From the human T2T-CHM13v2.0 reference genome, Homo sapiens, in NCBI RefSeq assembly GCF_009914755.1, contig NC_060935.1: DNA of 64,000 nt. One strand, given 5' to 3'. A model generated the notes under the pieces. The model did no database searches, was not told the origin of the DNA, and saw only the letters and a list, made by a program, of their open reading frames with translations. The translations under genes were made by a program, and so were the position numbers. Positions 53,751-62,802 of this stretch are shown in pieces. How positions within the stretch are numbered: the stretch's first letter is position 1; each line of letters begins with the position of its first letter.

Positions 53751-54877
53751 ATAATAGAAAGACTAATGATAAAAGTAAAATGGGGATGAATTGGGGGATG
53801 TGATAGAGAAAGGTCTTACAAGAAATTTTTGTACTGGCAATATTGTATTTCATAATCTCAGTGGTGAGTAATGGAAGTTAATTCTATTTTTTTCTTAAAA
53901 ATTTGCATATATGTTTTATGCAGGCTTCTATATGTACAATAAATTTTACTGTTTAAAAAAGTAAAAACATATCGATATTAAGTAGGTTCTATCCCAGGCA
54001 TGTAAATATATTTAACTTATCACATTGAGCTAAAAGTAAAACATTGCATGTGTTTGGAAAATCATTTTATAAAGTTTAATTCCCTTTTATTATCTCAAAT
54101 GAACTCTTGGAAAACTAGTTGTAAAAGGGAATGTCATCAATGTGTTAATGGACTTTCTCTTCTTGAGAAATTATGGACACATTCCTATTAAGGTAAAGAA
54201 TATGATAAGGAAGCTCAACATCATCACTCATTAACAAGAACTTAGAGGTACTGAATAATGCCATAAGAATTGAAAAAAAGGTGTAATCAGAGGGGAAAAA
54301 AGAGAAAAAAGTATCACTATTTGAGATTATATGATTATCTACATGTATAACAAGCTTAATCAAAAGACAAACTATTAGAATTAATAAGAGAGTCCAGCAG
54401 GGTTGTTGGATGTAAGATAAAAGTAGAAAAATGAACAATGTTCCTGTATACCAAAAATAACTAAATAGAAAATGTAATTAACATTTAGATACTTTTCATA
54501 ATAACCACACAATAAACTACATAGTATTCAGCAATTAACGAAGGCTATGTAAGATCTTTCCAGAGAAAATTTGAACTATTTAAAAGGCATAAAATGAGAT
54601 CAGAATAAATGAAGACCCTTACAGTATCAATGAATAGGATGATATAATAAAGATGACAATTCCTCCTAACACAAATTTATAATTTTAATACAATCCCAAT
54701 CAAAATGGCAATTGGCTTTTTTTAGAAGAGAGCTCAGTTGATTGTAAAATTTATATGGGAGAACAGACGTCTATAAAGAAGGATGTGTGCATGTGTGTAC
54801 ACTTAATTTATATTACTTGAACAAATACATCATTAGAACAGAATAAACAAAGAGAGCTCAAATATAAACCTATATTT

Positions 54878-56490
54878 GTGACATCAGCAAGATGGCAGAA
54901 TAGGAAGTTCCAGCCCTCATTGCCTCACAGAAACATTTATTTAACAATGATATAGGGAGACTTTATGAGGCTTAAAAATGCCTTTATGAGAATTCCAGAA
55001 TCCAGTTGAGAAGAATTGTAGTACCCTAGAGCAGCACAAAACTGAGAATAGCTATGTTGAAATGGTGGCCATAGCAGAAAAACACAAAAAAGAATTGACA
55101 TGTCCCATTTAACTTAAACTATTCAAAGATCCCTGCTTGACGCCCTGCAAACACAACTTCTGCTTCACCTGCCTCAGGCAGTTGGAGAGGGAGAACTAGC
55201 ATGTCCTTTCACTTGTTCCCAGTGTCTTGACATCTCTTGGATCCAGAGGATCTAGACCAATATGGCCCTGGGGAAGCTAGTGGCTGAGATCACAGTGATG
55301 ACACTTGTGACACTTGTGCTGAGCATGTTCTGCATGGAGTTCTATGAAAAGATGAGTCTGAATGTGGCCACAAGTAATAACCTCCTCATATTTTCTAATG
55401 ACCTGTGGAGCCTCTTATGGAGATATGTCCAGATGAGACCACCAGAGAATGCCAAGACATTAATCTCTGCTCCTCCTGTCCTAGGGTCCTCGTGCTTCAC
55501 CTCTGGCTGACATTATTAGGAGTTGAAAGTGGGAGAAATAAAAAGATGGATTGCGGGTGTTTGCAGAGAATCTGCATTTCATGAAGAACCTTTCCTAGTA
55601 TCATCAGATCTCTGGTTCTGAGTGGTGAGCCTCAAGAGCGTATGTGAAGTCACTGCTAGCACAGAAACTAGGACGGTTCTCCATGTGAGCCCAAACTTAG
55701 AAGTGGGGATTTTCCTGGACTGTGACCTGAAAACCATTTCATTTTTCAACACGTCTGATAGTTTCCATTTATTCACCTTCACAATATGTCTATCTTGGAG
55801 CCTCTATTTTCACTCTTTGGACCTGGGATCCCAAGAGAGGGTGAGAACATGCAACACATGAAGATCTGTACCAAGGAAGGTATCGATGTCATAATTTGAC
55901 CACAGTCCTCTCAGGGAGCCAGGAAAAGAGGAATATGCAGGATGAAACTGTCAGATCATACACTTTCATCTTTTTTGACATTACCAGGAGTTTATAAGTT
56001 TGAGAAACCATTTGTTTTACTAAAAAGTAAGCTTTAAGATTAGAATTGCAAAAATAAACAATTGATTTTAAAACCTAACTTAATTGTAAATACTGGTCTT
56101 TGCTCAAGATAAAATTGGACCAAACCCAAGAGGCCCACAGTGTGAGGGCTAGTTTTGTTTCTCCTCTTGTGTGTTTCCCAGGGCTACCTCCGTGAACTGC
56201 TGCTTCCTCATGTAACCAAGAACTTGTTTCTGAAGAGTGCCTAGGTTGTCTGTTCATAGGCTCAACCCCCGTGGACTTGAGAAGGAAGGTTTCCTGTGTA
56301 TGCCCCACATGGGGAGGAGAATCACAGGGCTGGAGATATTCAGAGGGACATGGTGTCCAAGGATTAAGTTGGGAAATGAAGGAAAAGTCCAGGAAGAGTC
56401 ATTTGTTGGCATGAACTGAAAGTTGATTCAAAGAGCACAATAAGGCAAATTTTCAGCCTCTTTTCCCTCAAAATTAAATAAAATAAAAAA
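54878..56490 (+). pseudogene. Processed pseudogene of an RFPL4B-like RING + PRY/SPRY (B30.2) protein; decayed CDS ~55062-55899
   Basis: Decayed C3HC4 RING (TCPI*..CKHNFCFTC..TCSQC), PRY (MSLNVATSNNLLIFSNDL) and SPRY motifs (VLGSSCFTSG*HY*ELKVG..W..GVCRE, VGIFLDCD). No B-box and no introns. A-rich tail at 56470-56490; TSD 54861-54877 / 56487-56503 (14/17 identical). Confidence 0.88.
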
Positions 56491-56690
56491 TAGACCTATG
56501 TTTAACCCAAGAACCTAAGGTATGATTTTTAAAATGTCTCCATAAAGCCATGGGGAAATAATGGATTGTTTCACAGATGGTGTTTGGGATACTGACTGTC
56601 CATATGAAAAAGTCAATAAAACGCAAACATAGCATTTTAGCATACACAAGACTAGTCTTCAGAAGAATAACTACCTTAAAGTGAAAGGTA

Positions 56691-62802
<6,112 letters not shown>

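What the first reader, a model, noticed from the sequence alone, without database searches (positions are those of the whole stretch)
54878..56503. Complete retrocopy of an RFPL4B-like RING-PRY/SPRY ligase, possibly from a gene lost in humans
Seen: a decayed intronless ORF (55062-55899) encoding a C3HC4 RING, a short linker without a B-box, PRY and SPRY. It has in-frame stops at 55110, 55253, 55508, 55517 and 55619 and two frameshifts (~55195, ~55790). It is followed by ~570 nt of 3'UTR, an AATAAG 26 nt before an A-rich tail, and a 17-bp TSD (AATATAAACCTATATTT / AAAATAGACCTATGTTT) that splits an older L1 ORF2. Knowledge: RING + B30.2 without a B-box is the RFPL architecture; LLIFSNDL, CFTSG-HY-E-KVGEIK-W and VGIFLDCDL resemble RFPL4B as recalled. 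RFPL4 genes are oocyte / cleavage-embryo (DUX4-associated) genes. Inference: the linker and RING differ a lot from RFPL4B, so the parent may be another paralog that survives only in other mammals. The ORF track shows only two unlabeled fragments of it.
Basis: partly seen in the sequence, partly recalled or inferred. Interest (0 to 1): 0.78.

Follow-up and report, generated by a model that had tools for sequence, protein, structure and literature searches.

The report
Ancient L1-spliced RFPL ligase retrocopy
This is a dead, very old retrocopy of a RING-SPRY ubiquitin-ligase gene from an RFPL branch with no intact member found, and its first 188 bases come from the start of an L1 element that was spliced onto the gene's message before it was copied back into DNA.

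Summary
It has a 3'UTR, an AATAAG, an A-rich tail and a 14-of-17 target-site duplication.

Two things change the reading.

First, the supposed 5'UTR (54878-55065) is the exact start of an old L1 5'UTR. The L1 likeness stops where 11 of 15 genomic L1 copies continue with GT(A/G)(A/G)GA, a splice donor. A second human copy on chr10 joins a different upstream exon at the same base. So a spliced mRNA that started at an L1 promoter was retrocopied.

Second, the coding part is neither RFPL4B nor RFPL4A. It forms a third RFPL clade (100/100 support) with decayed human copies on chr10 and chr2 and with ORF fragments of unknown source. A further decayed copy on chr5 was not in the tree. This clade is weakly sister to RFPL4B (91/32).

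No intact parent was found in the human T2T genome or in two very large protein libraries. "Lost in humans" fits. "Survives in other mammals" has no support.

It is an ordinary dead pseudogene with an unusual origin. Empty-site dating and GENCODE annotation could not be checked.

The parts
54583..54767 (.). Older dispersed repeat in the left flank (L1 ORF2-like) into which the retrocopy inserted
   Evidence: 18 of 18 genome candidates match at 69-82% identity over query 24-208. The translated left flank (54300-54877) is 31% identical over 143 aa to an old L1 copy (L040), E 5e-9.
54861..54877 (+). Left target-site duplication (AATATAAACCTATATTT)
   Evidence: 14 of 17 bases identical to 56487-56503. 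It starts A-rich, as expected at an L1 endonuclease nick site.
54878..55065 (+). Exon derived from the first ~188 nt of an old L1 5'UTR. It starts at the L1 5' terminus and ends at the L1 splice donor.
   Evidence: 138 genome candidates, 40 scored, 69-89% identity. In 3 of 3 copies checked, colinear L1 ORF1 and ORF2 lie downstream. 7 of 7 copies begin within 1-2 nt of 54878. 11 of 15 copies read GT(A/G)(A/G)GA right after the point where the window departs.
55066..55899 (+). Decayed RFPL-type coding exon: 5 nt of native leader, ATA at 55071 in place of Met, then RING, short linker, PRY/SPRY and stop at 55897-55899
   Evidence: Translations. RFPL4A and RFPL4B Met1 aligns at 55071. 65-67% DNA identity to copies on chr10, chr2 and chr5.
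55101..55225 (+). C3HC4 RING finger, broken by TAA at 55110 and a frameshift at 55197-55198
   Evidence: Pfam PF13445 1.6e-7, PF15227 2.4e-7, PF00097 3.3e-7, PF13923 2.8e-6.
55334..55896 (+). PRY/SPRY (B30.2) domain and C-terminus. Stops at 55508, 55517 and 55619; frameshift near 55784.
   Evidence: Pfam SPRY 3e-7. PDB 2fbe (RFPL1-like) 1.1e-26 over query residues 73-240. The C-terminus matches family fragments at 53-67%.
55900..56469 (+). 3'UTR of the source transcript
   Evidence: Unique in the human genome at first look: 1 of 1 candidate is itself. 56182-56248 is 79% identical to the chr10 copy's 3' region. No match to the RFPL4B, RFPL4A or RFPL1-3 loci held.
56439..56444 (+). AATAAG, a possible decayed polyadenylation signal
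   Evidence: Read directly, 25 nt before the A-rich run. Its function is inferred.
56470..56486 (+). Decayed poly(A) tail (A-rich run)
   Evidence: Read directly.
56487..56503 (+). Right target-site duplication (AAAATAGACCTATGTTT)
   Evidence: 14 of 17 bases identical to 54861-54877.

Best explanation
Window 54878-56486 is one L1-mediated retrocopy insertion. It is tens of millions of years old, roughly 60-100 My by a crude estimate, and it is now dead. Its template was a chimeric, spliced mRNA.

Inferred steps in the origin:
1. Transcription began at the own start site of an old L1 element, from its sense promoter.
2. The first ~188 nt of the L1 5'UTR were used as an exon, up to a GTAAGA-type donor.
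3. That exon was spliced to the acceptor of the single coding exon of an RFPL-type RING-PRY/SPRY E3-ligase gene, 5 nt upstream of the position of its start codon.
4. The polyadenylated mRNA was reverse-transcribed into an older L1 fragment, leaving a 17-bp target-site duplication.

The source gene belonged to a third RFPL lineage, distinct from RFPL4B and from RFPL4A/RFPL1-3. It has RFPL4B-like architecture: a canonical C3HC4 RING, no RDM, no B-box and a short tail. Its other known remains are decayed copies on human chr10, chr2 and chr5, and ORF fragments from other, unidentified genomes. No intact member was found.

The insertion has no evident present function: five stops, two frameshifts and no start codon at the native position.

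Shown: the anatomy, the L1 identity of the 5' piece, the position of the junction, the shared acceptor and the clade. Inferred: cis- versus trans-splicing, germline expression of the source, and the age.
For: L1 identity of 54878-55065.
- 138 genomic candidates were found and 40 were scored, at 69-89% identity.
- In 3 of 3 copies examined, L1 ORF1 and ORF2 homology follows colinearly.
- 7 of 7 aligned copies start within 1-2 nt of the insertion's first base.

Splice junction.
- The window follows the L1 family up to '...GAAATGG' and then reads TGGCCATAGCAG.
- 11 of 15 L1 copies read GT(A/G)(A/G)GA at that point; 4 of 15 read ATAAGA.

Same acceptor in an independent copy.
- On chr10 an RFPL-type RING exon ends '...AACTTCTATG' and is followed by TGACAATAGCAG.
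- That end is homologous to the exon-1 donor of the two-exon chr12 genes ('AAGTTCCAAG|GTAAGG').

Single insertion event. The TSD (14 of 17) brackets the L1 piece, the gene and the A-tail together.

RFPL membership. Pfam finds RING and SPRY and no B-box. The PDB best hit is the RFPL1-like SPRY at 1.1e-26.

Third clade. In the careful LG+G4 tree of 58 rows, the family of 8 rows has 100/100 support, RFPL4B 100/100, RFPL4A/1-3 99/99 and all RFPL 100/100. The quick C20 trees give the same three clades.

Family ties at the DNA level. Identity is 65-67% to the chr10, chr2 and chr5 copies, with a shared 3'UTR stretch with chr10. Against RFPL4B only a 61-nt patch matches.

No parent.
- Only 4 genomic candidates match the coding DNA, and only the locus itself matches the 3'UTR.
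- In 1.84 billion representative proteins, nothing longer than about 200 aa exceeds 46% identity.
- Word-index searches returned only RFPL4A-type proteins at 35-40% identity and short fragments.
Against: - Four of 15 L1 copies lack the GT at the junction, and the source L1 copy itself is unknown.
- The parent's genomic acceptor cannot be seen, because no parent locus was found. The acceptor is inferred from two retrocopies.
- All members of the 'third clade' are decayed or fragmentary. Shared neutral decay and long branches can inflate clade support. The clade's position relative to RFPL4B is weak (91/32; SH-aLRT 78).
- The careful mixture-model tree did not finish.
- All three human copies carry ATA where Met should be. 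The source may therefore already have been a transcribed pseudogene, or may have used an upstream start.
- The ATG in the L1 piece may be a later CpG-decay product. Copies read ATGG, ACAG, ACTG or ATGA there.
- Age rests on 188 nt compared with copies chosen for their similarity to the query.
Confidence: 0.72

Rival explanations
1. One reading: a plain, complete retrocopy of an RFPL4B-like gene with its own 5'UTR and ATG, whose parent survives in other mammals.
For: The RING resembles RFPL4B most, at 40-47% identity. The architecture matches RFPL4B: a canonical RING, no RDM and a short tail. The family is weakly sister to RFPL4B (91/32).
Against: - The 5' 188 nt and the ATG are L1 sequence.
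- Full-length identity to RFPL4B proteins is 31-35%, no higher than to RFPL4A-type proteins at 33-37%.
- RFPL4B is monophyletic without the family, at 100/100.
- No intact relative was found in other mammals.
Confidence: 0.08
2. The parent was the stem lineage of today's RFPL4B (or of the common RFPL4 ancestor), so no gene was lost. The 'third clade' comes from very old copies plus long-branch effects.
For: - The family plus RFPL4B are grouped at 91/32 and SH-aLRT 78.
- They share architecture.
- RFPL4B evolves fast: human versus other orders is about 55-58% identity.
- All family rows are decayed.
Against: - The family has a long shared stem of its own, 0.37-0.6 changes per column, with 100/100 support. 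Copies budding successively from the RFPL4B stem would not share one.
- Family members share a C-terminal motif and 3'UTR stretches that RFPL4B lacks.
Confidence: 0.15
3. The L1 piece was joined not by splicing but by template switching of the L1 reverse transcriptase, or by RNA ligation, during retrocopying.
For: Chimeric L1 insertions made by template switching or ligation are documented. Law & Burns, bioRxiv 10.1101/2025.02.02.635956: abstract, outline and passages seen.
Against: This needs two coincidences. The break in L1 must fall exactly at a GT donor (11 of 15 copies). The break in the gene must fall at the same base where the chr10 copy joins another exon that ends at a donor.
Confidence: 0.08
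4. There were two independent insertions: a short L1 5' fragment and a 5'-truncated RFPL retrocopy that happen to abut.
For: None specific. Nested repeats are common in this window.
Against: The TSD brackets both parts as one unit, and the rest of the L1 does not follow the A-tail. The older flank repeat resumes there instead. An L1 insertion made of only the first 188 nt of the 5' end is not how L1 truncates; L1 copies are typically 5'-truncated (established knowledge).
Confidence: 0.03

Closest known systems
RFPL4B (human chr6 locus; 263-aa ORF confirmed as RFPL4B, 84-92% identical to primate proteins named so)
   Same: RING directly followed by PRY/SPRY with no B-box or coiled coil. Canonical C3HC4 RING Pfam hits and no RDM (PF11002). 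One coding exon. Short tail ending soon after '...KIC'. Weak sister grouping (91/32).
   Different: Only 31% identical over the full length. The window copy lies outside the 100/100 RFPL4B clade. There is no 3'UTR likeness. The post-RING 'N.ALGKLV' stretch resembles RFPL4A-type proteins and TRIMs rather than RFPL4B.
RFPL4A / RFPL1-3 group (chr19 and chr22 loci; names of the human loci recalled from their positions, orthologue names)
   Same: Same family. The best whole-domain scores are to RFPL4A-type proteins, at 35-41% identity.
   Different: Those proteins carry the RDM motif PF11002 and a degenerate RING. They have two coding exons. They form a separate 99/99 clade.
Annotated RFPL4A processed pseudogenes such as RFPL4AP3 on chr4 (named in passages of PMC6906185 and PMC13702204)
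   Same: Dispersed, dead retrocopies of an RFPL gene.
   Different: The chr4, chr3 and chr8 copies are 48-69% identical to RFPL4A proteins and 28-51% identical to the window copy. Their parents still exist, and they showed no DNA match to the window's L1-derived 5' exon.
L1 chimeric insertions with gene exons (Law & Burns, bioRxiv 10.1101/2025.02.02.635956) and L1 5'UTR splice-donor hybrid transcripts (Belancio et al. 2006, recalled, not read here)
   Same: An L1 sequence and a gene exon are joined at splice sites and then retrotransposed as one unit with TSD and A-tail.
   Different: The cases in the passages I saw have gene 5' exons upstream of an L1 body. Here the topology is reversed: an L1 5' exon lies upstream of a gene body, so the product is a gene retrocopy and not an L1 copy. 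It also involves an old, extinct L1 family.

Membership tests
L1-mediated processed retrocopy | Target-site duplication flanking the insert | tested here: met
   54861-54877 and 56487-56503 match at 14 of 17 bases.
L1-mediated processed retrocopy | 3' poly(A) tail preceded by a polyadenylation signal | tested here: met
   A-rich run at 56470-56486. AATAAG (one base off the canonical signal) lies 25 nt upstream.
L1-mediated processed retrocopy | Evidence of splicing (exon-exon junction, no intron) | tested here: met
   The L1 exon ends at a donor in 11 of 15 copies. The chr10 copy uses the same acceptor point. RING and SPRY are contiguous, whereas RFPL4A-type genes have an intron there.
L1-mediated processed retrocopy | Identifiable parent gene elsewhere in the genome | tested here: not met
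   Only decayed copies on chr10, chr2, chr5 and chr12 match. The 3'UTR matches only itself.
RFPL family (RING + B30.2 without B-box) | C3HC4 RING finger | tested here: met
   PF13445 1.6e-7, PF15227 2.4e-7, PF00097 3.3e-7.
RFPL family (RING + B30.2 without B-box) | PRY/SPRY (B30.2) domain | tested here: met
   PF00622 3e-7. PRY model PF13765 was not reported at E<=1, but the alignment to the RFPL1-like B30.2 structure 2fbe spans residues 73-240 at 1.1e-26.
RFPL family (RING + B30.2 without B-box) | No B-box or coiled coil between RING and B30.2 | tested here: met
   No B-box model at E<=1. About 36 codons lie between the last RING Cys (55223) and the start of the B30.2 alignment (55334).
RFPL family (RING + B30.2 without B-box) | Falls inside the RFPL clade relative to TRIM27, TRIM11, TRIM39-like, TRIM68 and the chr11:4.45 SPRY exon | tested here: met
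   All-RFPL branch 100/100.
RFPL family (RING + B30.2 without B-box) | RDM motif (PF11002) | tested here: not met
   No hit at E<=1. The RFPL4B rows also lack it, while the RFPL4A-type rows have it.
RFPL4B orthologue group | Groups within the RFPL4B clade | tested here: not met
   RFPL4B (19 rows) is 100/100 without the window copy. The window family is a separate 100/100 clade.
RFPL4B orthologue group | Colinear 3'UTR with RFPL4B | tested here: not met
   No match genome-wide or to the RFPL4B locus, including 1.4 kb past its stop codon.
L1 sense-promoter spliced chimeric transcript | 5' end coincides with the L1 5' terminus | tested here: met
   7 of 7 aligned L1 copies begin within 1-2 nt of 54878. 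The YY1-box-like AAGATGGCNGAATAGGAA occurs twice in the window against 0.03 expected by chance. The other occurrence is at the 5' end of the young L1 at 56702. The motif's YY1 role is recalled.
L1 sense-promoter spliced chimeric transcript | The 5' piece belongs to a real L1 family | tested here: met
   3 of 3 copies carry colinear ORF1 and ORF2 homology downstream. The subfamily name was not determined, because no Dfam was on hand.
L1 sense-promoter spliced chimeric transcript | Source locus with L1 upstream of the gene (cis) or evidence of trans-splicing | not testable with these tools
   No source locus was found in the human genome, and no other mammalian genomes are held.

The most novel reading that the evidence does not exclude
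The L1 5'UTR exon was not a one-off. It was the regular promoter and first exon of a now-extinct early-eutherian RFPL paralogue, a third RFPL4-type lineage. That would be an ancient exaptation of an L1 sense promoter for a germline or early-embryo E3 ligase. The gene is known only from fossil retrocopies (chr11, chr10, chr2 and chr5 in human, and fragments in other mammals). Its transcript structure, including alternative first exons, can be read from those fossils.
Probability: 0.2. Interest if true: 0.55.

Novelty: new variant of a known kind. Interest (0 to 1): 0.38.

Why it matters
As a locus it is a dead pseudogene with no sign of present function, so the direct importance is low. It has two points of interest.

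First, it is a fossil record of an mRNA that began at the sense promoter of an old L1 and was spliced to a host coding exon. L1-gene chimeric insertions described in the passages I read have the opposite order, with gene exons in front of L1. This copy and the chr10 copy let one read the exon structure of a gene that can no longer be found.

Second, together with the chr10, chr2 and chr5 copies it points to a third RFPL lineage beside RFPL4B and RFPL4A/1-3. My literature searches did not find this lineage described. That bears on how this fast-evolving family expanded and lost members. RFPL4 genes appear in the DUX4 and FSHD papers listed.

Tried and rejected
- **chr12:107.85 Mb as the parent: rejected.** It holds two tandem, two-exon, RFPL4A-type pseudogenes, 55-57% identical to sloth RFPL4A but 32-41% identical to the window copy. 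They fall in the RFPL4A/1-3 clade.
- **chr4 (RFPL4AP3), chr3 and chr8 hits:** these are RFPL4A-type processed pseudogenes, not this family. **chr2:223.13 and chr4:68.47** scored best against TRIM27 and are not this family either.
- **An L1 exon on the other family copies:** not found on chr10, chr2 or chr5.
- **Paralogous empty-site test.** I looked for other copies of the flank repeat that span the insertion point. It was inconclusive: 0 of 11 loci aligned the right flank convincingly next to the left-flank match.
- **Right flank as L1 ORF2:** not significant with the window's young L1 or with three old L1 copies.
- **Careful mixture-model tree (LG+C20):** it did not finish in two 300-s runs. 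I report the quick C20 trees and the finished careful LG+G4 tree. The two long fragment rows P0030 and P0162 were left out. They were in the family clade.
- **Papers on RFPL pseudogenes or RFPL evolution**: nothing on this locus or on a third clade. The library does not hold most subscription papers, and Bonnefont et al. 2008 on RFPL1-3 is recalled only.
- **One paper search** failed on a disallowed character and was reworded.
Full report
**1. Observation**

- Frame A (55062-55199) reads MVAIAEKHKKELTCPIx...CKHNFCFTC. It has TAA at 55110 and TAG at 55197.
- Frame B (55118-55861) carries the end of the RING, a short linker and the PRY/SPRY. Its stops are at 55253, 55508, 55517 and 55619.
- Frame C (55762-55899) gives the C-terminus (...GIPREGENMQHMKICTKEGIDVII, then stop).

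Pfam finds RING models on frame A (best 1.6e-7) and SPRY on frame B (3e-7). It finds no B-box and no RDM model at E<=1.

AATAAG lies at 56439. An A-rich run lies at 56470-56486. The repeat pair 54861-54877 / 56487-56503 matches at 14 of 17 bases.

**2. Family**

Among solved structures, the best match is the RFPL1-like B30.2 domain 2fbe at 1.1e-26. Pyrin, TRIM21 and butyrophilins score about 1e-18.

A word-indexed search of 5.8 billion proteins returned 9 hits, all named RFPL4A, RFPL4 or RFPL3, at 35-39% identity; one shorter alignment reached 47%.

An exhaustive HMMER search of 1.84 billion representatives gave 1445 hits at E<=1e-3 and only 6 at E<=1e-30.
- One of the six is the window's own 82-aa ORF.
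- The other five are long multi-SPRY proteins at 27-34% identity.
- No representative longer than about 200 aa exceeds 46% identity.
- The closest are short ORF fragments at 44-55% identity.

**3. The 5' end is L1**

The window's own assembly (T2T human) can be searched. Forty were scored, at 69-89% identity.

An alignment with seven of these places shows two things.
- All seven begin within 1-2 nt of the insertion's first base, with unrelated sequence upstream.
- All seven run on past the point where the window changes to RFPL sequence.

Three of three copies examined carry colinear homology to L1 ORF1 and ORF2 downstream. The probe was the window's own young L1. So 54878-55065 is the very start of an old L1 5'UTR.

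With 15 copies aligned, 11 read GT(A/G)(A/G)GA immediately after '...ATGG', the last bases shared with the window. Four read ATAAGA. The L1 likeness therefore ends at a splice donor.

**4. The acceptor**

The coding DNA has only three other matches in the genome.

| Place | Identity | Extent |
|---|---|---|
| chr10:105.63 Mb | 65% | plus a 67-nt 3'UTR stretch at 79% |
| chr2:173.25 Mb | 67% | |
| chr12:107.85 Mb | 67% | 197 nt only |

A fourth, weaker relative lies at chr5:128.63 Mb: 65% identity over 340 nt.

Homology of the chr10 and chr2 copies to the window begins at 55065-55071.

On chr10, the sequence just upstream is another RFPL-type RING exon ending '...AACTTCTATG'. That position matches the exon-1 donor of the two-exon chr12 genes ('AAGTTCCAAG|GTAAGG'). 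It is followed by TGACAATAGCAG. The window reads '...GAAATGG' followed by TGGCCATAGCAG.

Two different upstream exons, each ending at a donor, are thus joined to the same base of the coding exon. This is what splicing predicts. Template switching would produce it only by double coincidence.

The TSD brackets the L1 exon, the gene and the A-tail together as one unit. The older flank repeat resumes after the tail.

**5. Start codon**

Met1 of RFPL4A-type and RFPL4B proteins aligns with ATA at 55071. The chr10 and chr2 copies also read ATA there. The source therefore probably lacked ATG at that place. It either used an upstream start or was already disabled.

L1 copies read ATGG, ACAG, ACTG or ATGA at this spot. 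That pattern is expected of a decayed CpG, so the ATG may be secondary.

**6. Which RFPL?**

The 263-aa ORF at chr6:113.53 Mb is RFPL4B. It is 84-92% identical to primate proteins of that name.

Identity of the frame-corrected window peptide, with X at each break, to other proteins:

| Compared with | Identity |
|---|---|
| Human RFPL4B | 31% |
| RFPL4B of other orders | 32-35% |
| RFPL4A-type proteins | 33-37% |
| chr2 copy | 44% |
| chr10 copy | 39% |
| Two family fragments | 55-60% |

Region by region, the RING and the C-terminal tail resemble RFPL4B most, and the middle resembles RFPL4A-type proteins most. The Pfam profile (canonical RING models, no RDM) is that of the RFPL4B rows, not of the RFPL4A rows.

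Trees were built from 60 rows (quick, LG+C20) and from 58 rows (quick C20, and careful LG+G4).
- All show three clades.
- In the careful tree, the window family (window, chr10, chr2 and five fragments, one named 'RFPLA protein, partial' from Crocuta) has 100/100 support.
- RFPL4B has 100/100 and RFPL4A/RFPL1-3 has 99/99.
- The family plus RFPL4B is only weakly joined (91/32; SH-aLRT 78 in the quick tree).
- The careful mixture-model run did not finish.

**7. Parent**

The 3'UTR matches nothing else in the human genome at the first look. It does not match the RFPL4B, RFPL4A or RFPL1-3 loci held.

It does share a stretch with the chr10 copy. One fragment ORF of unknown source (P0166) reads through a colinear 3' region (the second point is by eye).

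A profile search with the family alignment found 10 proteins. They were fragments and the same RFPL4A-type proteins, with no intact family member.

So no parent is visible in human. None turned up elsewhere, within the limits of those libraries.

**8. Age**

K2P distance of the window's L1 exon to seven L1 copies averages 0.263. Among those copies it averages 0.327.

At the 0.17% per My rate quoted in Law & Burns (passage seen), this puts the L1 family near 95 My and the exon at very roughly 60-80 My. The estimate is biased, because the copies were chosen for their similarity to the query.

Copies within the RFPL family differ by about 34%. That is more than one burst from a single source would give. 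The tree also splits them into two sub-groups.

**9. Comparison with what is known**

Processed pseudogenes of RFPL4A exist and are named; RFPL4AP3 on chr4 is one.

L1 chimeras joined at splice sites are described by Law & Burns, but with gene 5' exons upstream of L1. L1 5'UTR donors that make hybrid transcripts are known from Belancio et al. 2006, which I recall and did not read here.

The present case reverses the topology and involves an extinct L1 family and an apparently extinct RFPL lineage. I found no paper on this locus or on a third RFPL clade.

**10. Verdict**

This is a dead pseudogene of unusual origin. It is wrong on the 5'UTR and start codon, and unsupported on a surviving parent.

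Noticed in passing
G000 chr12:107,845,458-107,847,470 and 107,851,855-107,854,007 (loci L036/L037): Two tandem, unprocessed, two-exon RFPL4A-type pseudogenes, each a RING/RDM exon, an intron of about 1.2-1.5 kb and a SPRY exon. They are 55-57% identical to sloth RFPL4A, with donors GTAAGG/GTTAGG and acceptors intact in sequence. This looks like the remains of an RFPL locus lost in humans.
   Followed up: partly
G000 chr10:105,626,7xx-105,627,8xx, minus strand (locus L034): A family copy with two RING segments in tandem. An RFPL-type exon 1 (RING + linker) is spliced in frame onto the complete RING-SPRY exon. Its 3' end is interrupted by a young L1 ORF2 fragment.
   Followed up: partly
window 56695-~62600: A young, near full-length L1 starts 190 nt after the retrocopy. 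Its 5' end reads AAGATGGCTGAATAGGAACAGCTCCAG at 56702. It served here as the L1 ORF1/ORF2 probe.
   Followed up: partly
G000 chr5:128,634,596-128,635,211 (locus L042): A fourth, heavily decayed member of the window's RFPL family: 65% DNA identity over 340 nt and five stops.
   Followed up: partly
G000 chr3:81.42 Mb and chr8:49.73 Mb (loci L043, L044): Further RFPL4A-type processed pseudogenes, with RING and SPRY contiguous on chr3. I did not check whether they are annotated.
   Followed up: no
G000 chr2:173,251,9xx (locus L035): The chr2 family copy begins exactly at the end of an upstream dispersed repeat and is cut off after the SPRY core, with an Alu a few hundred bases further on. Its ORF is present in the protein libraries as a 126-aa fragment, P0099.
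   Followed up: no
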